Shown here in pieces: positions 1 to 43,003 of a stretch of DNA of 44,005 nucleotides (within the stretch, counting starts at the first letter, position 1; each line of letters begins with the position of its first letter). Under the pieces are notes generated by a model. That model was given only the letters and a program-made list of their open reading frames with translations, was not told where the DNA came from and searched no databases. The position numbers and the translations under genes are program-made. The stretch is from a virus (lineage: Duplodnaviria; Heunggongvirae; Uroviricota; Caudoviricetes), in IMG/VR virus record IMGVR_UViG_2579778573_000005. One strand, given 5' to 3'.

Positions 1-271
1 TTACTCCAGAGACAGCCGAACCGAAAAACCGTTTTCAGCGAGCGTCAGACTCAGTGTGTTGATAGTCCAGTCCCGGTCCTCCTCGGTCCCGAAACCTTGA
101 GTTGTGACTTTGCATTCTGCTGTCAGCGACACTAAATCGAGCGTCGCTGGCGTCGTGTACGTCATAGAGAACTCTTTTTTAGCTGCACCGCCCTTGAGCC
201 CTGGTGCAGCTTCTTTCGCTGCGTCGAGCGACGGCTCAACTGCCGGCCATTCAATGACAGGATCGCCGCCA
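1..271 (-). pseudogene. Downstream segment of tail gene D in a second reading frame (open 4-324, stop at 1-3); probable frame-broken C-terminal part of D
   Basis: Minus-strand frame open for ~107 codons directly downstream of the D stop, overlapping the D 3' end; no start codon near the junction (first Met at 165). Confidence 0.35.
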
Positions 272-1045
272 CTACCTTGTCCGCAATTCTTTGATCTGCC
301 CAGTTGCTGTGTCGTGATATTTAATCAGATACGTCGGTTCCGGATTTTCGCCACCGCTACCACTATCGCCACTTTGTCCATTTCTCGAATAGCCCCAGCT
401 GGAGTTATCACGACGAGTTAGCGTGTAGTGCTGGAGCGGAGCACCGCTAACAGATTCGCCCGCGCCGCGCGGCAGGAATATCCAGTACCCGCCCGCGGGT
501 TTACTCACCGCATCGAATCTCGTTGCGAGCCGCGACATCAGGTGCATATCTGACTCGCCGACCTGATCGAGTTGCGTGATAACATTGTCTGCAAACCGCT
601 TTGATACGCGTGGTTTTAGCCCATTATCGCTCGCTATTGTCGCAACGATATCGCTGACAGTGACGTCGCTCCAGGAACGAGTCTTTTTGCTCTGAACTGT
701 CGGAGATCCTTTTGCTGCGTTCATCGGAGCCGCTTTTGCTGTGAAATCAACTACCCGGGGTTCACCGCCACTGCTAGCACCGTCAACGATGTATATCCCT
801 TTATCAATTATCTGATTACCGAAACCGAGCCCAATACTGATTTTTACTCCGCGGGCCGGAATTTTCAGAGTTTCAGAAACTATTGCTACGCGGAGTTCGT
901 CTGTCTGTTTACTGGAGCCGCCGTAATCTGTCAGCGTGATATTGATCAAACCTTTTCTTATTTTATCCGTGATGTTTTTATTATCAGCAGATATATAAAA
1001 ATTAGGTTTCCACGCCTCCACGCCAGTATTTACGTAATCACTCAT
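272..1045 (-). CDS. Phage tail protein D (P2 gpD-like), N-terminal ~257 codons
   Basis: Track ORF 257 aa; last gene of a P2-ordered tail operon; shorter than typical gpD (~350-390 aa). Confidence 0.55.
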   Translation of the reverse strand: MSDYVNTGVEAWKPNFYISADNKNITDKIRKGLINITLTDYGGSSKQTDELRVAIVSETLKIPARGVKISIGLGFGNQIIDKGIYIVDGASSGGEPRVVDFTAKAAPMNAAKGSPTVQSKKTRSWSDVTVSDIVATIASDNGLKPRVSKRFADNVITQLDQVGESDMHLMSRLATRFDAVSKPAGGYWIFLPRGAGESVSGAPLQHYTLTRRDNSSWGYSRNGQSGDSGSGGENPEPTYLIKYHDTATGQIKELRTR

Positions 1046-1048
1046 TCA

Positions 1049-1273
1049 TCAATCCCATAATTGCGTTTCTTTTTTAACCGGCTCTGGTTCGATATCTGGT
1101 AAAACAATTTTTTCTCCAGCACGAAACACGGCACACATATCCGTTACGCCGTAATTCGAAACCTGATATAAAACAGTCTCTGTCGTTTTTGACGCTCTCC
1201 CGTAGACCGCAAGGCAGATCTGATCGAGACGGTCACCGTCCCGTGTAGTGTATGTAATCATTTGGGGCCCCAT
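1049..1273 (-). CDS. Phage tail protein X-like small protein
   Basis: Track ORF 74 aa; resembles P2 gpX-type small tail proteins; sits between U and D. Confidence 0.5.
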   Translation of the reverse strand: MGPQMITYTTRDGDRLDQICLAVYGRASKTTETVLYQVSNYGVTDMCAVFRAGEKIVLPDIEPEPVKKETQLWD

Positions 1274-1434
1274 TAATTAAAAGGATTTCATAATGAGAAT
1301 TAATTTTAGTAGTCGGAGAGGTATTAGTATTTCGGCGTCAAAAAAAATACCATCAGGTTGTTTTACATTTATGTTCGTAGTTTTTTTTATTATTTTTATA
1401 CTTGTTAAGTGCTCTGGTAGCGCTTGATTTTGTA

Positions 1435-1863
1435 TTAATCTAGCGAAGCTCCATAATATTCGAGCGTGAGTGAAAAGTCCTGCGATTTAGGTGTTCCGCC
1501 CATCAAAAAGCTGTTTTGCGTTTCAGTTAGTTCTCGCAGCACCCAGTACCCTTTCACCTCCCCGGTCCCCAGCACTAGCTGCTGGGGTTCTCCCGTGTTC
1601 CCGAGCGCTCGCAAATCTGTCAACAGGCCGACGCCGCACCCGTCAAGAAATAAAGCGTTTATCTTTCCATCGATAGTAATTGTGGGGTTCGGTCGTCCGG
1701 TTATCTGCAACGCGTCGTTTTTCCCGAATCGTGTTTGCTGAGCCCAGCGCCAGGCGTCACTACGTTGCAGTTTGTTGTACGCTACTGTTGATATAGCAAA
1801 AATGAAATCACCCAGGCCGAGCATGATATCCTCAGCACCGTTTATTGCATCACTCATTGTCAC
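1435..1863 (-). CDS. Phage tail protein U-like
   Basis: Track ORF 142 aa immediately downstream of the tape measure gene, overlapping its stop. Confidence 0.5.
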   Translation of the reverse strand: MTMSDAINGAEDIMLGLGDFIFAISTVAYNKLQRSDAWRWAQQTRFGKNDALQITGRPNPTITIDGKINALFLDGCGVGLLTDLRALGNTGEPQQLVLGTGEVKGYWVLRELTETQNSFLMGGTPKSQDFSLTLEYYGASLD

Positions 1864-3500
1864 CCCGCCGCAGCTGGTTTATCAAACATCGCGCCACGAT
1901 TGTACGAACTCGCAGCCTGTCTCAGTCCATCGAGCACCCCCGACGCTGCAGATTGTTGTATTGACTGCGGATCTGTCGCACCGACAATATTGATTTCGAT
2001 TTTATTGTTTTGCTCCGGCGCAGGTGTCGAGACTGCCTGCTTCAACGTATCAATATTTAACGTCGACGAATCCAGTGCTGCAGGCGCGGTATTTTTATTT
2101 ACCATCCCGGATAATGGATTAACAAACGCGAGCATTGATTCTGCCTGAGATTTTGCCTGTTCTTGCCGTTCTGGATGCCGCATATTTTCGACAGCCTCTT
2201 CGGCTTTTGCCTTCGCAATATTATCAGCAGTCAATCCAGCGTTCGGTGAATATTTACCTCCCGAATCCATAAACTCTTGATATGCCCGATTATATTCGTC
2301 ATTATAAGTTTTCTGTTCTTCATCTGATTTTTCATCCGGAATAAGCCACTCCAGTTTCTTTACGACAGCCCATATAATCTTCCCGAATTTGACGCAACCT
2401 TCTCCAAAATTGACGATGCCATCCCACATTTTTTTCATATTTTCTGGTTTTACCCACTCAGTAATTGTGCTGACAAAACCACCCTGATTATCCTTAAACC
2501 AGGATGTAAATGTTTCACGTACTGAGTCAAACGTCGGCGCGAGTTCCCCCCCGATTTTACCGAGTGTATCTGCAAGTCCCGACGTAATAGAGCCCCACAG
2601 ATTTGTCACTGATACATGCGCACGCGCCGCCCCTTCCGCACCCTCTTTTGTTAACAAATTCGACTTTTGCGCGTCAGACATTGTCTGTTCCCAGCTTTTA
2701 CCCGTCGCCTTCATATACGTCATGATCTTATTAGCCTCGCCCCCCATGAGCTGGTCAGCGAGGCTCGCCGCTTGCTTCTCATCTTTCATTTCAGAGATGC
2801 GACGCATAACCTCATTAAACTGTTTTTCCCGATCCCAGCCAGCCATTCGTTTTTTCGTCAGGCCAATTTGAAATAACATGGGATTCAGGCTTTTTTCGTT
2901 TCCGATTTCGCCGATTTTATTTGTAAGTTCTTCAGACAAATCCCCGATATTTTCGCCGTTCAGGCCCGCGGCTTTACCAATATTTTCCCACGCAGCGTAT
3001 TTTTCGACGCCAACGCCGTAGGACTTCGCCAGACCGAGTTTTTCTGACGTCTCTGCATTCATTGCCAGCGCACCAGCTGCAGCACCGCCAATGAGCCCTG
3101 CCGCGCCAAGTGTCCCCCATTTGATACCCCGCCCCGTAGCCCTCACCGCACCTGCGGCGGCTCGTCCGCCCCATTTTGCAGCTCCTTTTGCGCGACCCGT
3201 CCACTTCTCCAGCCGCTGTTTTTTAGCAAGTTGAGTATTCAGCGCCTCCTGGTCCTGCGTTGTCGCTTTTATTCGACGGTCCAGCTTTTGATACTGAGCA
3301 GATAAATCAGAAACGTCTTTACCTGCCAGTTTCATTGCTGCGATTTTGTCTTTTAATTTATCCTGACTTTTCGTTAATTTCCCGACAGTAGACGACGTCT
3401 GCCGAATCGCATCATTGAGTTCTGTTGTACCGCGACGAAACGACGGGTCTATTCGCCCACCGAATACAACCTGCGTTTTAAAGTTTTGAGAAATAGCCAT
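1860..3500 (-). CDS. Tail tape measure protein
   Basis: Track ORF 546 aa; Gly/Ala-rich and coiled-coil-like segments; position between chaperone E and U. Confidence 0.65.
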   Translation of the reverse strand: MAISQNFKTQVVFGGRIDPSFRRGTTELNDAIRQTSSTVGKLTKSQDKLKDKIAAMKLAGKDVSDLSAQYQKLDRRIKATTQDQEALNTQLAKKQRLEKWTGRAKGAAKWGGRAAAGAVRATGRGIKWGTLGAAGLIGGAAAGALAMNAETSEKLGLAKSYGVGVEKYAAWENIGKAAGLNGENIGDLSEELTNKIGEIGNEKSLNPMLFQIGLTKKRMAGWDREKQFNEVMRRISEMKDEKQAASLADQLMGGEANKIMTYMKATGKSWEQTMSDAQKSNLLTKEGAEGAARAHVSVTNLWGSITSGLADTLGKIGGELAPTFDSVRETFTSWFKDNQGGFVSTITEWVKPENMKKMWDGIVNFGEGCVKFGKIIWAVVKKLEWLIPDEKSDEEQKTYNDEYNRAYQEFMDSGGKYSPNAGLTADNIAKAKAEEAVENMRHPERQEQAKSQAESMLAFVNPLSGMVNKNTAPAALDSSTLNIDTLKQAVSTPAPEQNNKIEINIVGATDPQSIQQSAASGVLDGLRQAASSYNRGAMFDKPAAAG

Positions 3501-3608
3501 CGATTTTCATGACCTCGTTTACATAGAAATTAAAAACCCGGTACGGCAGGTCCATTTGCGTATCGGGCGGGATGGCAAGTTTTTTCGCAATAAACGGAAT
3601 CAGAATAA

Positions 3609-3890
3609 CTATATCTGATGTCGGTCTTTCGGAGGCTTTACCAGTTCGTTAAATGCGGCCTCCATTTGATCGTAATCGCACGCAGGCAGTGCATATAAAT
3701 CCTCACGCTCCAGATTTGCCAGGCGCGCCAGCATTGTCGCTGTCCGCTCTTCAAGACCACTTTTATCGTTACTGAACATAATGCGGTCGCGTAATTTTGG
3801 TTCGCGAATAGTAATTGTATCGCGGCTCTCCCCCTTAATAATAAACGGGCGAGAGAGCGTAATAGTCATACTGTCTAATAATGATTCCAT
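3609..3890 (-). CDS. Tail assembly chaperone (P2 gpE-like)
   Basis: Track ORF 93 aa between tube and tape measure genes; a -1 frame extension ORF (3478-3648) overlaps its 3' end. Confidence 0.45.
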   Translation of the reverse strand: MESLLDSMTITLSRPFIIKGESRDTITIREPKLRDRIMFSNDKSGLEERTATMLARLANLEREDLYALPACDYDQMEAAFNELVKPPKDRHQI

Positions 3891-3902: not shown

Positions 3903-4415
3903 TTAATATACATGGAGAATACGAGCAACGCCCGCAAGAACGTCAACACCATTAATTACTCGTTTCATTTTTGCAGGATGAATCTCGTAAATAATTTTTC
4001 CATTTTGAACTCGTTTATAATAGCTCGGCGCAATCGTTACTGATTGCCCAACTGCTGATTTTGAATCAGTCCCCTGCGCGTCATCAGTAATCGCCGTAAT
4101 AAGCCCCTCATATGTATCAATACGTTCAAAATTGACACCGTAATTGTCAGTATATGCACTTCGAATTTCGAACCTTGTTTTAGCACCTGGTATTAATCCC
4201 AAATACCCCATCACACCAGAATCGGAGCCAGAGACTTTAAAACTGGCTGACATTTTCTCCATTCCCCCGTCCAGAGTGATAGCTGTATCCATAGCGCCCG
4301 TCTTAAAATCATCTTCGATTATTTTCATATCGACGGGAGTGTATTCAGTGCAATTTAAAACTCGTTCTCCCTGGACGAACAACGCAAATGCACGATAGGT
4401 GTTACTATCTGCCAT
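3903..4415 (-). CDS. Tail tube protein (P2 FII-like)
   Basis: Track ORF 170 aa directly after the sheath gene. Confidence 0.6.
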   Translation of the reverse strand: MADSNTYRAFALFVQGERVLNCTEYTPVDMKIIEDDFKTGAMDTAITLDGGMEKMSASFKVSGSDSGVMGYLGLIPGAKTRFEIRSAYTDNYGVNFERIDTYEGLITAITDDAQGTDSKSAVGQSVTIAPSYYKRVQNGKIIYEIHPAKMKRVINGVDVLAGVARILHVY

Positions 4416-4432: not shown

Positions 4433-5935
4433 TTAGACTGTTTCTTTAAAAAGAGAGGCCAGAGCTTCAACTGTGTAATCATTATTAATGCGGTACATTA
4501 ACGTAATTGTTTGTGCCGGGGATTTCGGTCCAAAGTCAACATTAATATAAAGATTACCAGCGGCCAGACTTTCTTTTGTATTTAACTCTTCATCTAACCA
4601 CGCCCGTCCTCCGTTAATCGCGCCCTGCTCCTCTAATTTATGCAGATACGCGTTTATCGACTCTACAACGTCTGTTCCGAGGTGCAGGTCTATCGGGCGA
4701 TCAATAAAATCGGTCATCATTGCCCGGGCTATTGAATCCTCAATTACGTCAGCTGTCCGACGAACGCATTCAAAGGACCATTGGGGACTGAGGCTACACA
4801 GATAGTTACCCCAGTGTCTGAATCCATCATAGCGAATAATTGTGCTGACCTGGCTGGCGTTCAGCAGATTTGCTGTGCAGTTCGTTTCACCGATTATAAA
4901 ATCATCGACTTGTTCGAGTCCTGTAATTCCGTAGATATTTTGATTCGATTTGCTCCACCAAAACCCTTTTTCGTTATCAATTCTGGCTCGTAAACCAGCA
5001 GCGATAGCTGAATACGGACGAGATAAACCACTAACATCACTCGTAGAATAAACACGAGGGCGCAGAATTTCCATTCTGCCGCCGTACCTCTGACGACGAT
5101 TTACAACGTCAGCAGGCGTAGCGCCTCGCGGTGAATCGATATATCCAACGCCTCGTAATTTATTTGTCACCACTTCAAGTTGTTCTGCAATATAATCGTT
5201 AGCACTATAATCTGGAGCGATTAAAATTCTCGGCGTTACTTGATTTATTTGCGCAGACGTCAACAATGCGTTAATCCCGTTAACGACGTTCTGCCGCATT
5301 TTTGTTTCGTCGCTGTCCTCTTCGACGCGGACAACAACAATAATGGCATCCTCCTGATTTAGTATTTCAGATACAGCGGGAGGAAGGGTTCCAGACCCAC
5401 CGAGCAATCCAGCTTTTTTTTGACTGCCTGCAATTAACGTCGGAACATTATATTTGAACGATTCGTCTTTACCACCGGATAAATTTGTTGGGGGGAGCGC
5501 GAATACAGTCCCCGTTCCTGCGTGATCACCACCGAATGTGACGTTAATATATTCTCCAATCTGGAGTCCTTCTTTATACTGCTGGTTCTGATCGTACATT
5601 TTTGACGGGGTCATGGCACCGTCCGTGATCATTGTTAATTTTCTCGAACCGTCGGGCAGTGTGCTGTATCCTGGAGTTGCTACATTCCCGTTAATTCCCA
5701 AATCAACAATTTCAACAATCCAGTTGTTTCCGTCGGCCCCTGGCATGACAGTCGAAAACTCAACAAGATTGTCTGCGAGCTCTGATCCCCATAATAGTGA
5801 TGCACAAGTTGGGTAGCTGGAATCGGGAGCAGTACCAACAATCCCAATCACGGAAATATCTACTGTGTTGATCTCTTTTGTGCCGTCGTCGTATTCGAGC
5901 GTGCGAATACCGTGTAAAAAATTAGTTACGCTCAT
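4433..5935 (-). CDS. Contractile tail sheath protein (P2 FI-like)
   Basis: Track ORF 500 aa; N-terminal region resembles P2 FI sheath. Confidence 0.8.
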   Translation of the reverse strand: MSVTNFLHGIRTLEYDDGTKEINTVDISVIGIVGTAPDSSYPTCASLLWGSELADNLVEFSTVMPGADGNNWIVEIVDLGINGNVATPGYSTLPDGSRKLTMITDGAMTPSKMYDQNQQYKEGLQIGEYINVTFGGDHAGTGTVFALPPTNLSGGKDESFKYNVPTLIAGSQKKAGLLGGSGTLPPAVSEILNQEDAIIVVVRVEEDSDETKMRQNVVNGINALLTSAQINQVTPRILIAPDYSANDYIAEQLEVVTNKLRGVGYIDSPRGATPADVVNRRQRYGGRMEILRPRVYSTSDVSGLSRPYSAIAAGLRARIDNEKGFWWSKSNQNIYGITGLEQVDDFIIGETNCTANLLNASQVSTIIRYDGFRHWGNYLCSLSPQWSFECVRRTADVIEDSIARAMMTDFIDRPIDLHLGTDVVESINAYLHKLEEQGAINGGRAWLDEELNTKESLAAGNLYINVDFGPKSPAQTITLMYRINNDYTVEALASLFKETV

Positions 5936-6321
5936 TTTATTCCTTCTCTATTTTCACCAATTCGCGTCGCTATTGCTTCTTTAAGCTCGGCCAAATTTTC
6001 GATTTGCGCGTCAGATGCGGTTCCGGCATCTACTGCACACTGAATTGAGAATGCCTCAATTGACAGATCGCCAACAGTCCGTAATGTAGTCTGGAGTTTT
6101 TGCGTCTGCTCTTTTTTTACAAATTTAGAAATGCTCCCATAATCCCCGCTCAGCGCTCTTTCATATAAAACCCTACCGTGTTCCTCGCAATCATTTTTCA
6201 TTGCGGTGAATGGAATGTCGTTTCCAATCCCGTCAATATCGCAAATAATATTTATAGATAACCCATGCTCGTCATTAAAAACAGGGTTTGTTATTTTTCT
6301 AAATGAATCAACGCTTATCAT
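5932..6321 (-). CDS. Putative tail fiber assembly protein (positional)
   Basis: Track ORF 129 aa immediately downstream of the tail fiber gene, overlapping stop/start. Confidence 0.35.
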   Translation of the reverse strand: MISVDSFRKITNPVFNDEHGLSINIICDIDGIGNDIPFTAMKNDCEEHGRVLYERALSGDYGSISKFVKKEQTQKLQTTLRTVGDLSIEAFSIQCAVDAGTASDAQIENLAELKEAIATRIGENREGIK

Positions 6322-11484: not shown

Positions 11485-11515
11485 GGTTCCCCCTTAAGTG
11501 GGACCGAGGTCCCAC

Positions 11516-30530: not shown

Positions 30531-30543
30531 CTGAAGTCTCCTT

Positions 30544-36288: not shown

Positions 36289-36346
36289 AGCGTCTCCTGT
36301 CGCTAAAAATTGATTACGCTTAATCAGATTTGGGGCTCACCAACAG

Positions 36347-36577: not shown

Positions 36578-36602
36578 ATGGACTCCTTGTGTCCGCGTCA
36601 TC

Positions 36603-36642
36603 ATTACAAACAATAACTGTAATTACAAATTATATTTGCAAT
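36603..36642. promoter_or_regulatory. Rightward operator region: two overlapping ATTACA-N9-TG(T/C)AAT sites plus pR -10
   Basis: ATTACAAACAATAACTGTAAT (36603-36623) and ATTACAAATTATATTTGCAAT (36622-36642); minus-strand TATAAT at 36629-36634. Confidence 0.5.
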
Positions 36643-36675
36643 GCTCCCTACAATTAAACCTTGTATCCTTACGGT

Positions 36676-37089
36676 ATGAACACAAAAACGAAAAACATGG
36701 CTTTTGCTAGCCGACTACAACGGATTCTAAAAGACTTAGGCTGGTCTCAATCTGAGTTAGCTCGCCATATTGGGGTTACGGCTCAATCAGTTCAGGCATG
36801 GTGTAATGGGGTAACTCCAAGAAAAGATAAATTAGACAAGCTAGCAAAAGTGACCGGATACCCTGTTCATTTTTTCTTCATGAATGAAGGGGAATATTTG
36901 GATGAATCCACACTACACCCGGGTAATTACAATCAAGAACTAACCCCGCAAGAACAGGCTCTACTGCAACTATTCAGAGGACTGCCTGAGAGCGAAAAAA
37001 ATAAATTAATCAATGAGCTAAAAGAAAAAAGAGAGCACTTCGATCTACTGCTAAAAGAACTACTTGAAGCCAAAAACCAGACAAAATAG
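36676..37089 (+). CDS. Prophage repressor (CI-like, HTH only, no S24 peptidase domain)
   Basis: Track ORF starts at TTG 36661; first ATG 36676; HTH WSQSELARHIGVTAQSVQAW. Confidence 0.65.
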   Translation: MNTKTKNMAFASRLQRILKDLGWSQSELARHIGVTAQSVQAWCNGVTPRKDKLDKLAKVTGYPVHFFFMNEGEYLDESTLHPGNYNQELTPQEQALLQLFRGLPESEKNKLINELKEKREHFDLLLKELLEAKNQTK

Positions 37090-38099: not shown

Positions 38100-38420
38100 A
38101 TGGAAGCGCGCACCATCCCAGTAACACTCTTTATTCATTATGCAACTTCAACTTTCAGCCACGAAAAGCTGCTTGTTGCGACTGTTGATATGTCAAAAAA
38201 TTTTCCAGACAGGTACATCCTTCTGGAAAGCCGCGAAATTGAAATTACCGTTAACCAGCCCGAGCCAATCGACATCATCGGTTTACAGGTCGAGCAACTG
38301 CGTGAACAAAAACAGAAAACAGTCGCCGACGCCCAACAGCGTATTGCTGCTATCGATGACAAAATCCAGCAGTTACTTTGCATCGAATACACGCCAGATA
38401 CCGATGAGCTCCCCTACTAA
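38100..38420 (+). CDS. Hypothetical early protein
   Basis: Track ORF 106 aa; AGGAG RBS. Confidence 0.45.
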   Translation: MEARTIPVTLFIHYATSTFSHEKLLVATVDMSKNFPDRYILLESREIEITVNQPEPIDIIGLQVEQLREQKQKTVADAQQRIAAIDDKIQQLLCIEYTPDTDELPY

Positions 38421-38450
38421 AAACCACTGACCTGTAATGAGGAAAGACCA

Positions 38451-40667
38451 ATGACCATTTTTAACGGCTTGTTAGAAGCGAAAAAAGGCGCGCTCAAAAA
38501 CGGCGCGATCCCGGCGCTGGCCATCGCCATCGCCGCCCCTAACAAAAAAGTTGCCGAGAACATCATCATCGGCAAATTGTGGGAAGCCTACCCTGACCAC
38601 GGCGACAACTATTTCAAACCTAAAATCTGGGAAGATGCCCCGGGCCAACCGCGCCCAGGCGTCGGTGAGTTTGATGAGACGTTTGCCACAGAACACAGTT
38701 TTGATGGCGAAAAATGGGTAGTTAACACTCCTGTTGATTCAGATTGCAGTTCAGCAGATATCTCACAGGTTAGCGACCTGATGAAACTGCCGGCTCGTGA
38801 ACGATTCGCCGCCGTTCTGCTGTTCAGCCACGACGCCAACGAAGTCGACAGTGAATTGCTTGTGCAGACGCGTGAATACCTGGAGATGCTCGATAACAGT
38901 GATACTGACAGTGAGGATGAGGTTGACGCGTTTAACCGCATCGTTCTTGATGCCATGGTGGCGTGTAAGCCCATCGAGTACATGCATATTGCTGGATTGA
39001 ATAATCTGGTACATGCAATTTTGGCAAGTTGCGATACCCAGGAACAAAACCCGACCAGTTGGACTATCTCCAAATTTATAAAAAAATGGGTAGAGAATCC
39101 CGGTAAACGAGATGAAATGCTGCCGGAGGTAAAACCAGAAACAGCATCCGCACGTCCTTACAAACAGACTCACGCCACTCTGGATCGTGAAATTGCCTGC
39201 GCCCTGTTACCTGTTGCCCCGGAAAAAATCACCCCCAGCATCCTGAAAGCGGCAGACGAAATAATCAGTCAGGACAGGGAAGATTTTAAACGCTGGTCAA
39301 TGGCCTTGCGCACAACGGATCAGATCCTTGCCTATGACCGCGCATCAGTATTCGGTGTTATTCAGAGCGCCCCCGCAAAAGACACGTACCACTTCCCACA
39401 ATCCCTGCGCAGTCACATCGACAACTGGCTGCAAGCTAACGGGCAGCGTGATGCAAATGCTGTTGAAGAGAAGCCAAAGGAAGCAGCACCCAAGGATGAT
39501 GTAAAAGTCACCAACCACGGCGGCGGACGATTCTCAATTGATGGGATGATGTCAGAAACACCCTCAAATCAGGGCGAAAAAAGCGAAGCTGCAAATGCTG
39601 GAGAACGTAGTTTGCAGCAGTTGCGTGAGCAGTTTGTCACGCCTCGCCATGTGTATGACGTACCTGAAAATAACGCCGTATCACAGAGGGAACCTGCAGC
39701 TATTACCCTGGCAGAAGAGACTCCTCCACAAGAACAACTTAGCGAGCAGGTAAAGGATCTGGTGCAGAACGTTGACGCGCTGGTTGAGCGGATCCATGCC
39801 GAAGAGCACAAGCGGCAGAATGCAATCTCAGCTATCGAAACGGAGTTAAAGGACTCAGATGACACGGATAACCTGGCATTGTGGAAGAACGTATTCAAAA
39901 CCGATGAGCGCTTCACCAGTGCTTTCTCTCAGAATGGCGGCGGCACATCCATCAACGGCACTTATATAGCGATGAAAGCGACTCGCGAATTTGGGCCATT
40001 TGGTATTGGCTGGGGGGTAGAGGTGCTGGAGGAGCGCTTTGATAAAGGCGCACCAATAGTTCGCAAAAAACAGGTTGGTGAAAAAATAGAATGGGATCTG
40101 ATTCAAGACGGTGTTGGCGGGTACCTATGTGAAATGCACCACACCATGAAAGTGAGAGTCTGGTACATATTGAATGGGGTACGCGGTGAGTCCGAGGCTT
40201 ACGGATGCACACCTTATATCTACGACACTAAATACGGACCAACAAGCGACGGCGAAGCACCGAAGAAATCCTGGACGGATGCTGTTAAGAAAGCGCTATC
40301 CCCTCTCGGATTCAGCGCCGATATTTTCATGGGCCTGTACGACAATCCGGAATACCGCCAGAGGAATAAAGCTGAGTTTGATATCAAGAATGCCAGCGAG
40401 AATGCGGAAGATGCTACCCGTCTGCGTAAGGAACTGGATGAGAAGCTTATCAACGTTGCCAATACGCTGGCCGCCGCGGTAACCGCCAACGAAGTAAACA
40501 AGGTATTTGGCCTCATCGCCCGCGAAGTGGATGTACACAGGAAAGCAGCGGAAACCAAAGGCGATAAAGAATATTCATCGTATCTGGGATCACGTCTGCG
40601 CCGTATCACCGACATTAAAACTGAACGCCTCGCCGCCCTTACCGCTGCACAGGAGCAAACAGCATGA
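38451..40667 (+). CDS. Large early protein of unknown function
   Basis: Track ORF 738 aa; GAGGAAAGACCA RBS module; acidic N-terminal half; no family recognised by eye. Confidence 0.5.
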   Translation: MTIFNGLLEAKKGALKNGAIPALAIAIAAPNKKVAENIIIGKLWEAYPDHGDNYFKPKIWEDAPGQPRPGVGEFDETFATEHSFDGEKWVVNTPVDSDCSSADISQVSDLMKLPARERFAAVLLFSHDANEVDSELLVQTREYLEMLDNSDTDSEDEVDAFNRIVLDAMVACKPIEYMHIAGLNNLVHAILASCDTQEQNPTSWTISKFIKKWVENPGKRDEMLPEVKPETASARPYKQTHATLDREIACALLPVAPEKITPSILKAADEIISQDREDFKRWSMALRTTDQILAYDRASVFGVIQSAPAKDTYHFPQSLRSHIDNWLQANGQRDANAVEEKPKEAAPKDDVKVTNHGGGRFSIDGMMSETPSNQGEKSEAANAGERSLQQLREQFVTPRHVYDVPENNAVSQREPAAITLAEETPPQEQLSEQVKDLVQNVDALVERIHAEEHKRQNAISAIETELKDSDDTDNLALWKNVFKTDERFTSAFSQNGGGTSINGTYIAMKATREFGPFGIGWGVEVLEERFDKGAPIVRKKQVGEKIEWDLIQDGVGGYLCEMHHTMKVRVWYILNGVRGESEAYGCTPYIYDTKYGPTSDGEAPKKSWTDAVKKALSPLGFSADIFMGLYDNPEYRQRNKAEFDIKNASENAEDATRLRKELDEKLINVANTLAAAVTANEVNKVFGLIAREVDVHRKAAETKGDKEYSSYLGSRLRRITDIKTERLAALTAAQEQTA

Positions 40668-41233
40668 GCACTGCTATCGCTATTGCAAAAGAATATGCCA
40701 GTCTGATTGACCTGTTAGAAACCGCCGATGAACTGACGCCAGAGATGATCGCCGACACGCTTGAAGGCATGGAAGGAGAACTGGGAGACAAACTGGACGC
40801 CATGATGGTCATCTGCCGTAATTTACAGGGCAATGCCAATACCTGCGCTGAAGAAATGTCTCGCCTGGCAACCCGTAAGACGTCCTTTGAAGGCAAGGAA
40901 AAAGCAATTCGAAAGCATATGCTCACCTGCCTGCAAGCTGCTGGCCTGGATAAACTGAAAACCGCAAAAAACACATTTACTGATGCACAGGGGGCTATCC
41001 GGGTAATTATCGATAGCAAAGATAAGATCCCGGATGAGTATGAGGGCGTGTCACTTGTTGATGTAGAAACGGTTATTACACCAAACAAGCGAGCCATTAA
41101 AGAAGTGATTGAATCTGCGGAGGCGGTTGCCGCCGAAATACTGGCGCGTGGAGAAACACCACCAGCCGAGTTATTAAACCCGGTACCAGGCGCACATCTG
41201 GAACGCGGCGAACGGTCACTGAGGATACGCTAA
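40664..41233 (+). CDS. Gp157-like protein (siphovirus Gp157 family resemblance)
   Basis: Track ORF 189 aa; N-terminal pattern EYASLIDLLE...ADTLEGMEGE. Confidence 0.4.
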   Translation: MSTAIAIAKEYASLIDLLETADELTPEMIADTLEGMEGELGDKLDAMMVICRNLQGNANTCAEEMSRLATRKTSFEGKEKAIRKHMLTCLQAAGLDKLKTAKNTFTDAQGAIRVIIDSKDKIPDEYEGVSLVDVETVITPNKRAIKEVIESAEAVAAEILARGETPPAELLNPVPGAHLERGERSLRIR

Positions 41234-41415
41234 TGCTTAAACTCACATTAAAGCGTGGTGACGCGGTTCACCTGGTACTTGCCGATGGTACCAATGGCAT
41301 TATTGAAGCACGGAGCCGCTGCGAACTTGGGCTACACCTGCCAGAAAACATTAAGGTCACTCGGGAGAAATCGGCATTCACCCCACAAGAACTGATTACG
41401 CCTAATCAGAAATAA
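41233..41415 (+). CDS. CsrA/RsmA-like small protein
   Basis: Track ORF 60 aa, translationally coupled (TAATG); ungapped alignment to E. coli CsrA matches L2, L4, T5, G9, G33, P37, V42, R44, E45. Confidence 0.4.
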   Translation: MLKLTLKRGDAVHLVLADGTNGIIEARSRCELGLHLPENIKVTREKSAFTPQELITPNQK

Positions 41416-41464
41416 AAACTCACCATCGCTAGCATTGCGATTCACCAGACACCGGAGGATCACA

Positions 41465-41689
41465 ATGCTGCGATGGCAACCGGGAGCAACTCTGCTCTCC
41501 GCATTTGATATCAAAATTGGTCGACTGTCGGCCAGCGTCAGGAAACAGACTTTGACCGAGTCTGATATTGCCCGTGCCTGCCAGAAGGCAGATGACGCAA
41601 TAAGCTACATAATGAGGAAAGACCATGAAAAGCGATCACGACATAATCACCAGAGAAGAAATGGTCGAGCTGACGGGAAGCCCACTTAA
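41465..41689 (+). CDS. Hypothetical small protein
   Basis: Track ORF 41435-41689; ATG 41465 with GGAGGA RBS; 3' end overlaps next gene. Confidence 0.3.
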   Translation: MLRWQPGATLLSAFDIKIGRLSASVRKQTLTESDIARACQKADDAISYIMRKDHEKRSRHNHQRRNGRADGKPT

Positions 41690-41888
41690 ATCAAAGCAAT
41701 GTGAGGCTCTTCGCCGGGCTGGAATTTTCTTCATGGAAAGGGCTGACGGACACCCAAAAACAACCTGGGGCCATTTCATGAACCCAATAAAATTTCGCAA
41801 TTTACAGGAGGTGACGACGCGAAAAGATGATGAACCTGATTTTGGAGCAATATTTAATGGCCGGAAAGAGAAAGAACCCAGCAGATAA
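41625..41888 (+). CDS. DUF4224-like protein upstream of integrase (possible excisionase/directionality factor)
   Basis: Track ORF 87 aa; IITREEMVELTG...RRAGIFF pattern; GAGGAAAGACC RBS module. Confidence 0.5.
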   Translation: MKSDHDIITREEMVELTGSPLKSKQCEALRRAGIFFMERADGHPKTTWGHFMNPIKFRNLQEVTTRKDDEPDFGAIFNGRKEKEPSR

Positions 41889-42873
41889 CTGGATGCCGCC
41901 TCGTGTTTACCAGGGCAAAGCGGCCTACGAATTCAGGAATAAAGATAACAAAGCGATACGCCTGTGCGCATTGGATGCACCACGATCAGCCGTATGGCTG
42001 GCATATGAAAAAGCGGTCGGTGACGAAAAAGAAAGAAATACTTTTCAGGCGCTCACGGAACAATTCATGACCTCCCCTGATTTTATGGATTTGGCAGTCG
42101 AAACCCGGAAAGACTACACAAAATATTCCGGAAAAGTTCTGCCTGTCTTCGGGAAGATCGACCCGGATAAAATCAAACCTGAACATATTCGGCGCTATAT
42201 GGATCAACGCGGTTTATCAAGCCGAACTCAGGCAAACAGGGAAAAAAGCTTTATGTCCCGGGTATTCCGTTGGGGTTATGAACGAGGTTATGTTCAGAGG
42301 AATCCTTGTCAGGGAGTTAAACAGTTTAAAGAGAAAGCTCGCGAACGTTATATTACGGATGAAGAATATCAGGCCGTTTATGAAGTGTCTCCTGATGTTG
42401 TTCGCGTAGCAATGGAGATTGCCTACTTATGCGTGGCCAGACAGAGTGATGTACTTTCATTGCAGAAAGACCAGCTGTTCGATTCCGGGATCTACATTCG
42501 TCAGGGAAAAACCGGCGTTAAGCAAATCAAAGCCTGGTCGCCTCGTCTGCAGAAAGCGATAGCTCTGGCTCGTTCTCTGCCATTAAAAACGGGAATCAGT
42601 AGCCTGTTTGTGATTCATCAAACTACCGGTGGCAAGTATACCCGTGATGGTTTTAACTCTCGTTGGCGTGATGTCAAAGCGGCAGCACAGGAAAAATATC
42701 CTCATCTGCAAATAGACTTCACATTTCATGATCTGAAAGCAAAAGGTATCTCTGATCTGGAAGGCAGCCTGGAAGAGAAGCAAGCAATTTCCGGGCATAA
42801 GAACCCGCGACAGACAGCAGCATATGACCGGAAAGTTAAAGTAGTGCCCGTAGTTGGTGGCCAGAGAAAATGA
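41857..42873 (+). CDS. int: Tyrosine integrase
   Basis: Track ORF 41827-42873; likely start ATG 41857; ends 130 bp from the tRNA-Leu 3' end. Confidence 0.8.
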   Translation: MAGKRKNPADNWMPPRVYQGKAAYEFRNKDNKAIRLCALDAPRSAVWLAYEKAVGDEKERNTFQALTEQFMTSPDFMDLAVETRKDYTKYSGKVLPVFGKIDPDKIKPEHIRRYMDQRGLSSRTQANREKSFMSRVFRWGYERGYVQRNPCQGVKQFKEKARERYITDEEYQAVYEVSPDVVRVAMEIAYLCVARQSDVLSLQKDQLFDSGIYIRQGKTGVKQIKAWSPRLQKAIALARSLPLKTGISSLFVIHQTTGGKYTRDGFNSRWRDVKAAAQEKYPHLQIDFTFHDLKAKGISDLEGSLEEKQAISGHKNPRQTAAYDRKVKVVPVVGGQRK

Positions 42874-42878
42874 ATGAT

Positions 42879-42913
42879 GATGCGTCCAGAGAAAAATCAT
42901 CTTCGGACGCATC
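42879..42913. promoter_or_regulatory. 9-bp inverted repeat in the int-tRNA spacer (att-region element or int terminator)
   Basis: GATGCGTCC ... GGACGCATC with 17-nt loop. Confidence 0.3.
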
Positions 42914-42933
42914 TTCGGAAATGAGAAAGAAGA

Positions 42934-42960
42934 TACAAAAAAACCACCCGAAGGTGGTTT
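42934..42960 (-). terminator. Rho-independent terminator downstream of tRNA-Leu
   Basis: Minus strand AAACCACC-TTCG-GGTGGTTT followed by TTTTT. Confidence 0.65.
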
Positions 42961-43003
42961 CACGACACTGCTTATTGCTTTGATTTTATTCTTATCTTTC
43001 CCA

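What the first reader, a model, noticed from the sequence alone, without database searches (positions are those of the whole stretch)
1..43003. Mosaic genome: lambda-like head and control modules joined to a P2-like contractile tail
Major capsid, terminase large subunit and W resemble lambda E, A and W, with a lambdoid cro/cI, O/helicase, nin, Q and lysis layout. The tail genes follow P2 order and content (V, W, J, I, H, sheath, tube, E, T, U, D). The join lies around 10.3-12.3 kb, where four unassigned head-tail adaptor ORFs sit.
Basis: partly seen in the sequence, partly recalled or inferred. Interest (0 to 1): 0.35.

Follow-up and report, generated by a model that had tools for sequence, protein, structure and literature searches.

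The report
Lambda-headed, P2-tailed E. coli prophage
This is a common E. coli prophage with a lambda-type head and a P2/pyocin-type contractile tail under lambda-style control; the design is real but already seen in other phages, and this copy has a broken tail gene.

Summary
Seven head proteins (A, W, B, C, D, E, FI) match lambda at 32-64% identity. Ten tail proteins (V, W, J, I, H, sheath, tube, U, X, D) match P2 at 30-41%. No P2 head genes, lambda tail genes or Mu structural genes are present. The early region is lambdoid in layout only.

The four "unassigned" ORFs can now be assigned: FI, FII, a lambda gpZ-family protein, and a homologue of the R2-pyocin collar PA0615. The module boundary narrows to about 11.5 kb, between FII and the Z-like gene. 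Per-gene GC steps there. A related contig with the same tail but a different head loses similarity there.

This is not a fresh lambda x P2 hybrid. The whole head-neck-tail block is collinear in Vibrio phage Valp1, a myovirus confirmed by electron microscopy. It also occurs in prophages of Buttiauxella, Erwinia and Shewanella. The same neck and tail occur with other head types in VP882, Jilinvirus, Chris1 and yong2.

The element sits at leuZ in about 8% of complete E. coli genomes and is already in GenBank as vB_EcoM-705R4. This copy has a 1-nt frameshift in baseplate hub gene D, shared by 364 of 435 genomes, so it is probably tail-defective.

Verdict: new member of a known kind, low interest.

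The parts
18729..19295 (-). Terminase small subunit
   Evidence: phrog_57, E 3e-39. 45% identity to Valp1 TerS; no BLAST hit to lambda Nu1.
16880..18742 (-). Terminase large subunit, lambda gpA type; an alternative upstream start is at 18841
   Evidence: 43% identity to lambda A, E 7e-168, and 60% to Valp1 TerL. The N-terminal 360 aa are 61-81% identical to Valp1 but 25-52% to lambda; the C-terminal part is equidistant.
16647..16880 (-). gpW head-tail joining protein
   Evidence: 35% identity to lambda W, E 5e-9. RefSeq calls it a gpW family protein.
15076..16650 (-). Portal, lambda gpB type
   Evidence: 64% identity to lambda B.
13769..15076 (-). S49 prohead protease/scaffold, lambda gpC/Nu3 type
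   Evidence: 56% identity to lambda C, E 6e-149.
13440..13769 (-). Head decoration protein, lambda gpD type
   Evidence: 40% identity to lambda D.
12347..13381 (-). Major capsid protein, lambda gpE type
   Evidence: 56% identity to lambda E, E 8e-148. 434 phage records hold a homologue.
11893..12312 (-). DNA-packaging chaperone FI
   Evidence: Pfam Packaging_FI, phrog_92. 32% identity to lambda FI.
11516..11896 (-). Head closure / tail attachment protein FII; last gene of the GC-rich head block
   Evidence: Pfam Phage_attach 2.8e-11 and phrog_82 9.6e-26. Lambda FII falls in the same phrog_82. GC 0.54 versus 0.48 in the next gene. Similarity to L024 ends at 11596.
11494..11519 (.). 11-bp-stem palindrome centred on the 31-nt FII / Z-like intergenic gap (its end overlaps the FII stop codon), at the module boundary
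   Evidence: Function unknown.
10804..11484 (-). gpZ-family tail completion / Neck1 protein
   Evidence: phrog_27, E 4e-43. Lambda gpZ hits the same phrog_27 at 3e-69. It travels with this tail type in Valp1, Chris1, yong2, VP882 and Jilinvirus. No PDB sequence match.
10271..10807 (-). Tail terminator / collar, homologue of R2-pyocin PA0615
   Evidence: A profile of five homologues matches PDB 6u5f_A 'Collar PA0615' at E 3.9e-11 over the full length. The top Foldseek hits are the pyocin R2 collar and the Mu terminator, from a low-confidence model with pLDDT 53. The ORF overlaps the Z-like gene by 4 nt and V by 35 nt.
9388..10305 (-). Baseplate spike, P2 gpV type
   Evidence: 35% identity to P2 V. 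Pfam Phage_base_V.
9044..9385 (-). Baseplate wedge, P2 gpW/gp25 type
   Evidence: 37% identity to P2 W.
8127..9047 (-). Baseplate protein, P2 gpJ type
   Evidence: 41% identity to P2 J, E 3e-65.
7498..8124 (-). Baseplate protein, P2 gpI type
   Evidence: 34% identity to P2 I.
6321..7505 (-). Tail fibre: gpH-type N-terminus with a lineage-specific C-terminus
   Evidence: 32% identity to P2 H over residues 28-139. phrog_5075 plus many tail-fibre PHROGs, N-terminal part only.
5932..6321 (-). Small fibre-associated protein in the gpG position
   Evidence: phrog_1795/1141. 44% identity over 55 aa to the yong2 tail fibre assembly protein. The assignment is inferred.
4433..5935 (-). Tail sheath, P2 FI type, with a roughly 110-aa insertion
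   Evidence: 36% identity to P2 FI, E 6e-59; 46% to yong2 and Chris1; 41% to Valp1. Residues 26-225 are hypervariable among close relatives.
3903..4415 (-). Tail tube, P2 FII type
   Evidence: 31% identity to P2 FII. 36% to yong2 and Valp1.
3501..3890 (-). Tail assembly chaperone gpE (3609-3890) with a putative -1 frame E' extension across the E-T gap
   Evidence: Pfam Phage_TAC_7 1.7e-15. A -1 frame ORF of about 55 codons overlaps the end of E, spans 3501-3608 and runs just past the T start. No canonical slippery heptamer was found, so the frameshift is inferred by analogy with P2 E+E'.
1860..3500 (-). Tape measure protein (gpT position), 546 aa
   Evidence: phrog_3654. 34-35% identity to the gene in the same position in yong2, Chris1 and Valp1. 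No BLAST hit to P2 T. Function is inferred from position and size.
1435..1857 (-). Tail protein, P2 gpU type
   Evidence: 35% identity to P2 U, E 2e-21.
1049..1261 (-). Tail protein X
   Evidence: 40% identity to P2 X, E 1e-13. It lies between U and D, as in Valp1 and VP882.
1..1045 (-). Baseplate hub gene D, frameshifted: a 257-aa N-terminal ORF at 272-1045 and an out-of-frame C-terminal part at 1-261
   Evidence: 30% identity to P2 D and 45% to yong2 D. A single extra A at about 278, relative to the intact 347-aa allele of strain 22KM0354. The insertion allele is in 364 of 435 genomes.
19969..21305 (-). Lysis cassette: two holins, an endolysin and a small lipoprotein-like ORF
   Evidence: phrog_198, phrog_217 and phrog_1259/9589. 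RefSeq calls the endolysin a TIGR02594 family protein.
21418..22975 (-). Q antiterminator (21418-22089), YbcO nuclease (22089-22382) and NinB-like DUF1367 protein (22379-22975)
   Evidence: Pfam Phage_antiter_Q 2.7e-38, YbcO and DUF1367; phrog_304 and phrog_319. A terminator-like hairpin at 21353-21330 lies between Q and the first holin.
23053..31987 (.). Low-GC accessory region within the early-right operon
   Evidence: GC 0.33-0.43. ImmA/IrrE M78 protease at 24901-25389, which hits PADLOC capP at 2.4e-25. LprI-domain protein at 29607-30530. ORF6N anti-repressor at 30705-31541. IS911-like element at 28275-29525.
33391..35551 (-). Replication genes: O-like initiator (34796-35551) and DnaB-type helicase (33391-34833)
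   Evidence: phrog_345 and phrog_9773; Pfam DnaB and DnaB_C.
35812..37089 (.). Immunity switch: cII/YdaT-like (35812-36288, -), cro/YdaS-like HTH (36347-36613, -), cI-like HTH repressor (36661-37089, +)
   Evidence: Pfam YdaT_toxin, YdaS_toxin/HTH_3 and HTH_3; phrog_163, phrog_35 and phrog_8. The repressor has no S24 peptidase domain.
38100..42873 (+). Early-left operon: exonuclease (38451-40667), Gp157/Gam-like (40664-41233), excisionase (41625-41888), tyrosine integrase (41827-42873)
   Evidence: phrog_2489, phrog_253, phrog_1266 and phrog_1; Pfam Sipho_Gp157 and DUF4224. Integrase is 25% identical to lambda Int and 47% to Chris1 Int.
42935..43059 (.). attR: a 125-bp repeat that includes the 3' 56 nt of tRNA-Leu (leuZ, 43004-43090)
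   Evidence: 100% match to ON470624.1 793-917 next to yecA, which is attL, outside the window.

Best explanation
The window holds almost all of one integrated temperate phage genome. It is about 43.9 kb including one att copy and a 1.25-kb IS, and it is inserted at the 3' end of tRNA-Leu leuZ.

Its structural genes form one continuous minus-strand late operon downstream of a Q antiterminator. The operon has two blocks:
- A lambda-type packaging, head and connector block: TerS, TerL(A), W, portal B, protease/scaffold C, decoration D, capsid E, FI, FII, and a gpZ-family tail-completion protein.
- An R2-pyocin/P2-type contractile-tail block: collar/terminator (PA0615 homologue), V, W, J, I, fibre H, G-like, sheath, tube, chaperone E(+E'), tape measure, U, X, hub D.

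How it works (inferred from the known lambda and P2/pyocin assembly pathways):
- Proheads are built and filled by the lambda pathway and closed by W and FII.
- Tails are built separately from a P2-type baseplate. Their length is set by the 546-aa tape measure, which predicts a tail of about 80-90 nm. They are capped by the collar and the Z-like protein.
- Head and tail then join through the FII / Z-like / collar interface.
- Because only this interface has to match, head and tail blocks are exchanged between phages at the FII / Z boundary.
- P2's Ogr-dependent late promoters are replaced by lambda-style Q antitermination.

The element belongs to an existing, widespread lineage that includes Vibrio phage Valp1 and prophages of Buttiauxella, Erwinia and Shewanella. 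It is not a new lambda x P2 hybrid.

The copy in this window carries a 1-nt insertion that truncates the baseplate hub gpD, so it most likely cannot make functional tails.
For: **Shown by tool results**
- Protein identities to the lambda head and P2 tail proteins. There are no hits to P2 head genes, lambda tail genes or Ogr, and no structural hits to Mu.
- FI and FII are assigned by Pfam and PHROG.
- The Z-like ORF and lambda gpZ share phrog_27.
- The collar ORF matches PA0615 at E 3.9e-11.
- The ORFs are contiguous and overlapping across the join: Z-like / collar by 4 nt and collar / V by 35 nt.
- There is one integrase and one att pair.
- Valp1 is collinear for every structural gene from TerS to D at 28-60% identity. 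It is a myovirus with a 60-nm head and a 90-nm contractile tail (PMC11054321).
- The same block occurs in E. whittamii, Buttiauxella, Erwinia and Shewanella genomes and in 11 divergent IMG/VR contigs.
- Contig L024 has the same tail (V 90%, J 90%, I 92%) joined to a ClpP-capsid fusion head. Similarity ends at window 11596.
- Per-gene GC steps from 0.54 in FII to 0.48 in the Z-like gene.
- Gene D carries the frameshift. All other structural ORFs are full length compared with relatives.

**From the literature**
- P2-like tail operons combined with non-P2 heads are documented for the HAP1-like viruses (VP882, HAP-1) and the related VHML (PMC2771037, PMC10612066).
Against: - No particle of this E. 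coli element has been imaged or purified. The 'vB_EcoM' name of the GenBank record comes from PHASTER prediction, not morphology.
- The E/E' frameshift site is not canonical.
- The tape measure and G-like assignments rest on position only.
- The Z-like protein has no solved homologue, so the physical FII / Z / collar contact is inferred.
- The collar structure model is of low confidence, pLDDT 53.
- The sharp GC step could mean that the head block arrived in this E. coli lineage fairly recently, rather than the whole block being old.
Confidence: 0.87

Rival explanations
1. This is a recent one-off hybrid, created in E. coli by recombination between a lambda-like siphovirus and a P2-like myovirus. 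That is the reading a first reader might favour.
For: - GC steps sharply at the FII / Z-like boundary.
- L024 shows that head blocks are swapped at this point.
- B, C and E are closer to lambda (56-64%) than to Valp1 (34-48%).
Against: - Identity to lambda and P2 proteins is only 30-64%. DNA-level similarity is limited to a 153-bp stretch of the portal gene and weak (about 64%) similarity over the capsid gene.
- The neck genes (Z-like, collar), the position of X and the absence of R, S and Ogr are not those of P2.
- The same complete block is collinear in Valp1 and in prophages of four other genera.
Confidence: 0.05
2. These are two separate adjacent elements: a tail-less lambdoid prophage remnant next to a P2-like tailocin or prophage remnant.
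For: The tail block has the gene order and the collar gene of R2 pyocin. Heads and tails also differ in GC content.
Against: - The ORFs overlap across the boundary.
- There is no second integrase, att site or regulator between the blocks.
- The linkage is conserved in many genomes and in an isolated phage.
- A single lysis cassette and a single Q lie upstream.
Confidence: 0.03
3. The copy in this window is a grounded (defective) prophage. It keeps the architecture but can no longer produce infectious particles, and it persists by vertical inheritance in a successful clone. This concerns activity and is compatible with the best explanation of the architecture.
For: - A 1-nt insertion truncates hub protein D at 257 of 347 aa.
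- The same allele is in 364 of 435 genomes, at 100% identity over the 81-bp test site; 424 records match window 1-25000 at >=99%.
- An IS is inserted in the accessory region.
- Sister copies carry other lesions: a stop codon in Q in 22KM0354 and ISEc52 in int in E03.
Against: - All other structural, lysis and regulatory ORFs are intact.
- The IS is intergenic.
- gpD truncation has not been shown experimentally to be lethal here.
- A co-resident P2-like prophage could in principle supply the missing function.
- Myovirus particles were seen after induction of one carrier strain, but that strain has six prophages, so the particles cannot be attributed.
Confidence: 0.6
4. This is a lambdoid phage with a Mu-like contractile tail, of the SfV / phiP27 / ST64B type (known to me from the literature).
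For: The lambdoid early region combined with a contractile tail is the hallmark of that group.
Against: - tblastn of all window proteins against Mu finds no structural hit at E<=0.01.
- Ten tail proteins hit P2.
- The head is lambda E-type, not HK97-type.
- The gene order is that of P2 and the R-pyocin cluster, not Mu.
Confidence: 0.02

Closest known systems
Vibrio phage Vb_VaM_Valp1 (OR500391.1; PMC11054321)
   Same: Every structural gene is collinear: TerS 45%, TerL 60%, portal 48%, protease 35%, E-type capsid 34%, FII 30%, Z-like 35%, collar 28%, V, W, J, I, sheath 41%, tube 36%, tape measure 35%, U 45%, X 48%, D 40%. It also has a Q-like antiterminator and cro/cI/cII-type regulators. EM shows a myovirus with a 60-nm head and a 90-nm contractile tail.
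   Different: Valp1 is a telomere (linear-plasmid) prophage with protelomerase and ParAB and no integrase. No non-structural window protein matches it. It has an extra PAAR gene and one more gene after V, and it infects a marine Vibrio host. B, C and E of the E. coli element are closer to lambda than to Valp1.
Escherichia phage lambda (NC_001416)
   Same: The head and packaging genes A, W, B, C, D, E and FI match at 32-64% identity. FII and Z belong to the same PHROG families. The overall gene order is the same, with Q-dependent late transcription of lysis, head and tail genes, and integration by a tyrosine integrase.
   Different: - There is no lambda tail (U, V, G, T, H, M, L, K, I, J absent).
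- TerS and the N-terminal half of TerL belong to another lineage.
- No BLAST similarity exists in cI, cro, cII, O, P, nin, Q or the lysis genes.
- The repressor lacks the S24 domain, and DnaB replaces P.
- DNA identity is far below genus level.
Phage P2 (NC_001895) and R2 pyocin of Pseudomonas aeruginosa (PDB 6u5f/6u5j)
   Same: Tail genes V, W, J, I, H (N-terminus), sheath, tube, E, U, X and D match P2 at 30-41% identity and lie in P2 order. The collar gene immediately upstream of V is homologous to pyocin PA0615 (E 3.9e-11). From my recollection of the PA0615-PA0628 cluster, X lies between U and D there as well.
   Different: - There is no P2 head (Q, P, O, N, M, L).
- There is no R, S, Ogr, C/Cox or gpA replication protein.
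- Unlike a pyocin, the element has a full head, packaging, replication and integration gene set.
- The sheath carries an extra, variable domain of about 110 aa.
Hapunavirus (VP882, phiHAP-1), the related VHML, and Iiscvirinae/Jilinvirus (vB_EcoM_ECO1230-10, ep3, HeidiAbel)
   Same: The gene order is the same: lambda-like terminase and portal, then FII/Hc1, then Z-like Neck1, then collar-position gene, then P2-order tail with X between U and D. Published accounts describe them as carrying P2-like tail operons on a non-P2 genome (PMC2771037, PMC10612066). They are EM-verified small myoviruses (PMC11990801).
   Different: Their capsid is a protease-capsid fusion rather than separate lambda C, D and E genes. 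Identities are low (sheath 26-44%, Z-like about 29% to ECO1230-10 with no BLAST hit to VP882). Their lifestyles are plasmid-prophage or virulent.
Citrobacter phage Chris1 and Hafnia phage yong2
   Same: Among cultured phages outside its own family, these have the closest tail proteins (sheath 46%, J 47-48%, D 44-45%). They carry the same Z-like and collar pair and a lambdoid early region. Chris1 integrase is 47% identical.
   Different: The head is a ClpP-capsid fusion type. The tail genes lie in a Mu-like order: V, sheath, tube, E, T, U, X, D, W, J, I, H, G.

Membership tests
Lambda-type head/packaging module | gpA-type large terminase, gpW, gpB portal, gpC S49 protease, gpD decoration protein and gpE capsid protein, in this order | tested here: met
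   BLASTP gives 43, 35, 64, 56, 40 and 56% identity, with E values from 5e-9 to 0. The order is collinear with lambda.
Lambda-type head/packaging module | FI packaging chaperone and FII head-closure protein | tested here: met
   Pfam Packaging_FI and Phage_attach score above their cut-offs. Lambda FII falls in the same phrog_82.
Lambda-type head/packaging module | Nu1-type small terminase | tested here: inconclusive
   No BLAST hit to Nu1. The ORF hits phrog_57, terminase small subunit, and is 45% identical to Valp1 TerS.
Genus Lambdavirus / lambda-like siphoviruses | Genome-wide nucleotide similarity to lambda | tested here: not met
   megablast finds only a 153-bp portal stretch at 82-84% identity. 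blastn finds only the capsid gene at about 64%.
Genus Lambdavirus / lambda-like siphoviruses | Non-contractile tail genes U, V, G, T, H, M, L, K, I, J | tested here: not met
   No BLASTP hit to the lambda tail proteins tested (Z, U, V, G, H, M, L, K, I, J; gpT was not in the panel). Only the Z family is shared, by PHROG.
Lambdoid phages (shared gene order and regulation) | Order int-xis-recombination-cI / cro-cII-O-helicase function-nin-Q-lysis-head-tail | tested here: met
   Pfam and PHROG assignments along the window.
Lambdoid phages (shared gene order and regulation) | Q-type late antiterminator upstream of the lysis genes | tested here: met
   Pfam Phage_antiter_Q 2.7e-38. A terminator-like hairpin lies between Q and the holin. 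Antitermination itself was not tested.
Lambdoid phages (shared gene order and regulation) | LexA-like (S24) self-cleaving CI repressor | tested here: not met
   The 142-aa repressor has only HTH domains. The immunity region is YdaS/YdaT (Rac-like).
Lambdoid phages (shared gene order and regulation) | Ability to recombine productively with lambda | not testable with these tools
   This needs genetic crosses.
Peduoviridae (P2-like phages) | P2-type tail genes V, W, J, I, H, FI, FII, E, T, U, D | tested here: met
   Ten proteins match at 30-41% identity. E is assigned by Pfam. T is assigned by position only.
Peduoviridae (P2-like phages) | P2-type capsid and packaging genes Q, P, O, N, M, L | tested here: not met
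   No BLASTP hits. No tblastn hits in 96 related loci.
Peduoviridae (P2-like phages) | Ogr/Delta late activator, C/Cox switch and gpA rolling-circle replication | tested here: not met
   No hits.
Peduoviridae (P2-like phages) | Tail completion proteins R and S | tested here: not met
   P2 R and S fall in phrog_65 and phrog_26. The window ORFs fall in phrog_27 and phrog_1072. hhalign gives no match.
R-type tailocin (pyocin R2-like) | Collar PA0615 homologue followed by V...D tail genes | tested here: met
   The profile matches 6u5f_A at 3.9e-11. The order of the pyocin cluster is from my own knowledge.
R-type tailocin (pyocin R2-like) | Absence of head, packaging, replication and integration genes | tested here: not met
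   A full, intact head and packaging block, replication genes and an integrase are present.
Valp1-type structural block (lambda-type head + Z/collar neck + P2-order tail) | Collinear homologues of all structural genes from TerS to D | tested here: met
   The block is also found in Buttiauxella, Erwinia and Shewanella prophages.
Telomere phages (Hapunavirus / Valp1 lifestyle) | Protelomerase and partition genes; linear plasmid prophage | tested here: not met
   No window protein matches the Valp1 or VP882 non-structural genes, apart from a weak (21%) Q-antiterminator match to VP882. The element is integrated at leuZ with a tyrosine integrase and att repeats.
Mu-like tail lambdoids (SfV type) | Mu-type sheath, tube and baseplate proteins | tested here: not met
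   No structural hit to Mu at E<=0.01.

The most novel reading that the evidence does not exclude
The FII / gpZ-family / collar junction may be a general docking adaptor that lets lambda-type (and ClpP-fusion) heads be fitted to contractile tails. This E. coli prophage family, with natural head-swapped (L024) and hub-defective variants, would then be a tractable system to map which residues set head-tail compatibility.

Related to this, the hub-frameshift allele, fixed in about 84% of copies, may have been retained by selection. It would disarm the phage while keeping immunity and cargo, rather than being neutral decay.
Probability: 0.12. Interest if true: 0.45.

Novelty: new member of a known kind. 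Interest (0 to 1): 0.17.

Why it matters
The main value is for annotation and bookkeeping.

- **Annotation.** Four ORFs that RefSeq and GenBank call "hypothetical" in more than 400 E. coli genomes can now be named: FI, FII, a gpZ-family tail completion protein, and a pyocin-type collar/terminator.
- **Classification.** The prophage can be placed in the lambda-head / P2-tail lineage, which includes the EM-verified myovirus Valp1. Automated tools label it inconsistently as "lambda-like" or "P2-like".
- **Activity.** The hub frameshift matters to anyone who tries to induce this prophage, uses it as a reference for CRISPR spacer targets (28 uropathogenic E. coli spacers match it, PMC12736100), or counts "intact" prophages. 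The dominant allele is probably tail-defective.
- **Evolution.** The head swap mapped at the FII / Z boundary is a clean natural example of modular exchange. It does not change current understanding of phage mosaicism.

Tried and rejected
1. **Locus files.** Loci L002-L004 at first seemed missing from the script machine. They are stored together in one file, and lambda and P2 proteins were also brought in through a dummy alignment.
2. **Genome scan.** The search for related loci on genome contigs failed with the first neck alignment because no stretch was conserved enough. It worked with a closer alignment.
3. **Z-like protein in the PDB.** A sequence search found nothing. hhalign against a single lambda Z sequence was weak, with probability 26% and E 7e-4. 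The Z assignment therefore rests on shared PHROG membership.
4. **Collar structure.** The search for homologous proteins returned only 12 close relatives, so the AlphaFold model was poor, with pLDDT 53. Its Foldseek hits were treated as a lead only. The profile search then confirmed them by sequence.
5. **E/E' frameshift.** No canonical XXXYYYZ slippery site exists in the permitted window, so the frameshift remains inferred.
6. **Rejected readings.** The Mu-like tail hypothesis found no hits. The two-adjacent-elements reading and the fresh lambda x P2 hybrid reading were also rejected (see rival explanations).
7. **Literature.** No paper was found that describes this E. coli prophage's architecture, or a prophage at leuZ in ST131. 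Mobberley et al. 2008 on phiHAP-1 is not held. The sequence type of the carrier strains was not determined.
8. **Promoter and terminator scans.** The total counts were mostly at or near shuffle expectation; terminator-like sites in 19-38.5 kb were about twice expectation. Only individual hairpins are mentioned, and only as leads.

Full report
**What the window is**

The window ends with tRNA-Leu, tRNA-Cys, tRNA-Gly and pgsA, which is the E. coli leuZ-cysT-glyW-pgsA locus. Positions 1-25389 are 100% identical to GenBank ON470624.1, "Escherichia phage vB_EcoM-705R4". That record is a PHASTER-predicted prophage region that still includes the host gene yecA. Its "M" (myovirus) label came from database similarity, not from microscopy.

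At least 80% of window 1-25000 is present in 442 of 5,426 complete E. coli genomes. In 424 records the best match to this query is at least 99% identical.

A 125-bp repeat at window 42935-43059 contains the last 56 nt of leuZ. It recurs next to yecA in ON470624.1 at 793-917. The prophage therefore starts about 0.8 kb to the left of the window. That left piece holds one lipoprotein gene. The whole element is about 43.9 kb including one att copy.

**Checking the observation**

I translated 61 candidate genes and compared them with all lambda and P2 proteins.

Head genes against lambda:

| Window ORF | Lambda protein | Identity |
|---|---|---|
| 16880-18742 | A | 43% |
| 16647-16880 | W | 35% |
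| 15076-16650 | B | 64% |
| 13769-15076 | C | 56% |
| 13440-13769 | D | 40% |
| 12347-13381 | E | 56% |
| 11893-12312 | FI | 32% |

Tail genes against P2:

| Window ORF | P2 protein | Identity |
|---|---|---|
| 9388-10305 | V | 35% |
| 9044-9385 | W | 37% |
| 8127-9047 | J | 41% |
| 7498-8124 | I | 34% |
| 6321-7505 | H (N-terminus) | 32% |
| 4433-5935 | sheath FI | 36% |
| 3903-4415 | tube FII | 31% |
| 1435-1857 | U | 35% |
| 1049-1261 | X | 40% |
| 272-1045 | D | 30% |

E-values reach 1e-148 or lower for the head genes and 1e-65 for the tail genes, so chance is excluded. The gpE chaperone is identified by Pfam Phage_TAC_7. The tape measure is identified by position and by 34-35% identity to the gene in the same place in related phages.

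No P2 head gene, lambda tail gene or Ogr homologue is present. No structural protein matches Mu.

The early genes have the lambdoid order:
- int, xis, a 738-aa exonuclease and a Gam-like protein on the plus strand
- a cI-like HTH repressor, facing a divergent cro/YdaS-like gene
- then a cII/YdaT-like gene, an O-like initiator and a DnaB helicase
- an accessory region
- a NinB-like (DUF1367) gene, YbcO and Q
- two holins and an endolysin

Apart from Int (25%), none of these matches a lambda protein by BLAST. "Lambda-like control" is therefore true of layout and family, not of sequence.

**The four adaptor ORFs and the position of the join**

- ORF 11893-12312 is FI (Pfam Packaging_FI, phrog_92).
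- ORF 11516-11896 is FII (Pfam Phage_attach, phrog_82). Lambda FII falls in the same PHROG.
- ORF 10804-11484 belongs to phrog_27, "tail completion or Neck1". Lambda gpZ hits the same family at 3e-69.
- ORF 10271-10807 had no annotation. A profile of five homologues matches the solved "Collar PA0615" of pyocin R2 at E 3.9e-11 over the full length.

For the last ORF, a low-confidence AlphaFold model (pLDDT 53) pointed the same way. Its best Foldseek hits were the pyocin collar, the Mu terminator and other tail terminators.

Lambda-type collinearity therefore runs from the small terminase through Z. The contractile-tail block starts with the collar gene directly upstream of V. As I recall the PA0615-PA0628 cluster, this is the arrangement in R2 pyocin.

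Three independent lines place the module boundary at the FII / Z-like gap:
1. Per-gene GC is 0.52-0.57 from TerS to FII and 0.40-0.51 from the Z-like gene to D. The step from 0.54 to 0.48 lies exactly between FII and the Z-like gene.
2. The IMG/VR contig L024 has nearly the same tail and neck (V 90%, J 90%, I 92%, tube 80%, U 85%, neck proteins 64%). Its head, however, is a ClpP-capsid fusion type. Nucleotide similarity to the window ends at 11596, inside the 3' end of FII.
3. The Z-like and collar pair accompanies this tail type in phages with quite different heads.

The ORFs overlap across the join: Z-like / collar by 4 nt and collar / V by 35 nt. All genes from Q to D lie on one strand with small gaps. 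This fits a single Q-dependent late operon and argues against two adjacent elements.

**Not a new hybrid**

Vibrio phage Valp1 (OR500391.1) has every structural gene in the same order:

| Gene | Identity to window |
|---|---|
| TerS | 45% |
| TerL | 60% |
| portal | 48% |
| protease | 35% |
| E-type capsid | 34% |
| FII | 30% |
| Z-like | 35% |
| collar | 28% |
| V | 31% |
| W | 52% |
| J | 38% |
| I | 38% |
| sheath | 41% |
| tube | 36% |
| tape measure | 35% |
| U | 45% |
| X | 48% |
| D | 40% |

Its published electron micrographs show a 60-nm head and a 90-nm contractile tail (PMC11054321).

A scan of IMG/VR with the Z-like protein returned 80 loci, which I classified with a protein panel:
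- 14 loci belong to the E. coli family.
- 11 divergent loci combine an E-type head with this neck and tail.
- About 55 loci, most of the rest, carry a Chris1-type or VP882-type protease-capsid fusion head.

A scan of one genome per species found the E-type head plus P2-order tail in five genera:
- Escherichia whittamii
- Buttiauxella ferragutiae
- Erwinia endophytica
- Shewanella surugensis
- Pseudomonas, more distantly

Among cultured phages, the same neck and tail occur in Hapunavirus VP882, Jilinvirus phages such as vB_EcoM_ECO1230-10, Chris1 and yong2.

The literature already notes that the HAP1-like viruses (phiHAP-1, VP882) and the related VHML carry P2 V- and F-operon homologues, and that the rest of the VHML genome resembles lambda- and N15-like phages (PMC2771037; PMC10612066).

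Head and tail similarities are discordant. The head is nearest to lambda and to Buttiauxella-type prophages. The tail is nearest to L024, then to Chris1 and yong2. Within TerL, the first 360 residues are 61-81% identical to Valp1 but 25-52% to lambda, while the rest is equidistant. This is the pattern expected from repeated modular exchange in an old gene pool.

**How it most likely works**

*Shown:* the gene content, the gene order, the ORF overlaps and the homologies above.

*Inferred from the lambda and P2/pyocin assembly pathways:*
- Proheads form from the portal, protease/scaffold and E. The terminase fills them, D stabilises them, and W and FII close them.
- Tails assemble independently on a baseplate made of V, W, J, I and D. 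The E/E' chaperones and the 546-aa tape measure take part. The tape measure length predicts a tail of about 80-90 nm, which fits Valp1's 90-nm tail and 596-aa protein.
- The collar and the Z-like protein finish the tail. Head and tail then join at the FII / Z / collar interface.
- A -1 frame ORF of about 55 codons overlaps the end of E and spans the E-T gap, as P2 E+E' would require. I found no canonical slippery site.
- Late transcription depends on Q instead of Ogr. A terminator-like hairpin lies between Q and the first holin.

**State of this copy**

Gene D is split. Compared with the intact 347-aa allele in strain 22KM0354, the window has one extra A near position 278. This truncates D at 257 aa and leaves the C-terminal 85 codons out of frame.

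An 81-bp probe across the site matches 364 genomes at 100%, which is the insertion allele. It matches 69 genomes at 95-99%; the one such hit inspected is annotated as an intact VgrG/Pvc8-family (gpD) gene.

All other structural ORFs are full length compared with relatives. An IS911-like element sits at 28275-29525 in an intergenic part of the low-GC accessory region. Sister copies carry different lesions: a stop codon in Q in 22KM0354, and ISEc52 in int in strain E03.

This copy is therefore probably unable to build tails. I put that at about 0.6, because neither the essentiality of the D C-terminus in this phage nor complementation by another prophage was tested.

**Verdict**

The phenomenon is an ordinary member of a known and widespread class of temperate myoviruses, and the sequence is already in public databases. 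What this work adds is the assignment of the four neck ORFs, a sharper boundary for the join, a natural head-swap partner (L024), and the hub frameshift in the dominant allele.

Noticed in passing
window 1-1045 (site near 278): A single-base insertion frameshifts baseplate hub gene D, giving 257 aa instead of 347. The insertion allele is in 364 of 435 complete E. coli genomes that hold the site. 69 genomes match at only 95-99%; the one inspected carries an intact D gene.
   Followed up: yes
window 4433-5935 (sheath residues ~26-225): Among otherwise 95-100% identical prophage copies, the N-terminal part of the sheath is hypervariable, with 25-residue blocks falling to 12-48% identity. Residues 300-500 stay 97-100% identical. 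This part includes the roughly 110-aa insertion that P2 FI lacks. It may be an exposed domain under diversifying selection or frequent recombination.
   Followed up: partly
window 8125-8160, and ON470624.1 in general: A 36-nt stretch at the gpJ/gpI gene junction matches, at 100%, an annotated CRISPR array in E. coli strain CNREC_004-43 (H80). A 2025 paper reports 28 spacers of uropathogenic E. coli arrays that match this prophage record (PMC12736100). This suggests that relatives are, or were, actively infecting E. coli.
   Followed up: partly
window 28275-29525: An IS3-family element is inserted in an intergenic, 33%-GC stretch of the accessory region. It is 99.8% identical to the copy in Salmonella phage SEN22 and 95% identical to IS911 in Sf6. 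Strain E03 lacks it and instead has ISEc52 inside the integrase gene.
   Followed up: partly
window 24901-27165: An ImmA/IrrE M78 metalloprotease at 24901-25389 hits the PADLOC capP model (a CBASS-associated protease) at 2.4e-25. Next to it are two proteins of unknown function: 201 aa (25399-26004) and 232 aa (26467-27165, with a weak hit to a DRT-associated transmembrane model). No known defence system could be called.
   Followed up: partly
window 16880-19295: The terminase is itself mosaic. TerS and the first 360 residues of TerL are of the Valp1 type (45% and 61-81% identity). The TerL C-terminus, W, portal, protease and capsid are as close or closer to lambda. This suggests an old exchange point inside the large terminase gene.
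   Followed up: partly
window 11494-11519: A perfect 11-bp-stem palindrome lies in the 31-nt gap between FII and the Z-like gene (its end overlaps the FII stop codon), exactly at the compositional and recombinational module boundary. Its function is unknown. It could be an attenuator, an RNA stability element or a recombination hotspot.
   Followed up: no
L024 (IMGVR_UViG_2529293142_000021), positions 9700-20680: This viral contig has a tail 74-92% identical in most proteins (sheath 64%) to the window's, joined to a ClpP-capsid fusion head instead of the lambda-type head. It is a natural head-swap partner of this prophage.
   Followed up: yes
L009 (E. coli 22KM0354), locus 27444-28115: This sister prophage has an intact D gene but an internal stop codon in the Q antiterminator gene. 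Different copies of the family are therefore disabled by different lesions.
   Followed up: partly
window 36661-37089 and 30705-31541: The repressor is a short HTH protein with no S24 self-cleavage domain, and the element also encodes an ORF6N-type anti-repressor. Induction may therefore work through an anti-repressor rather than through RecA-stimulated CI cleavage.
   Followed up: no
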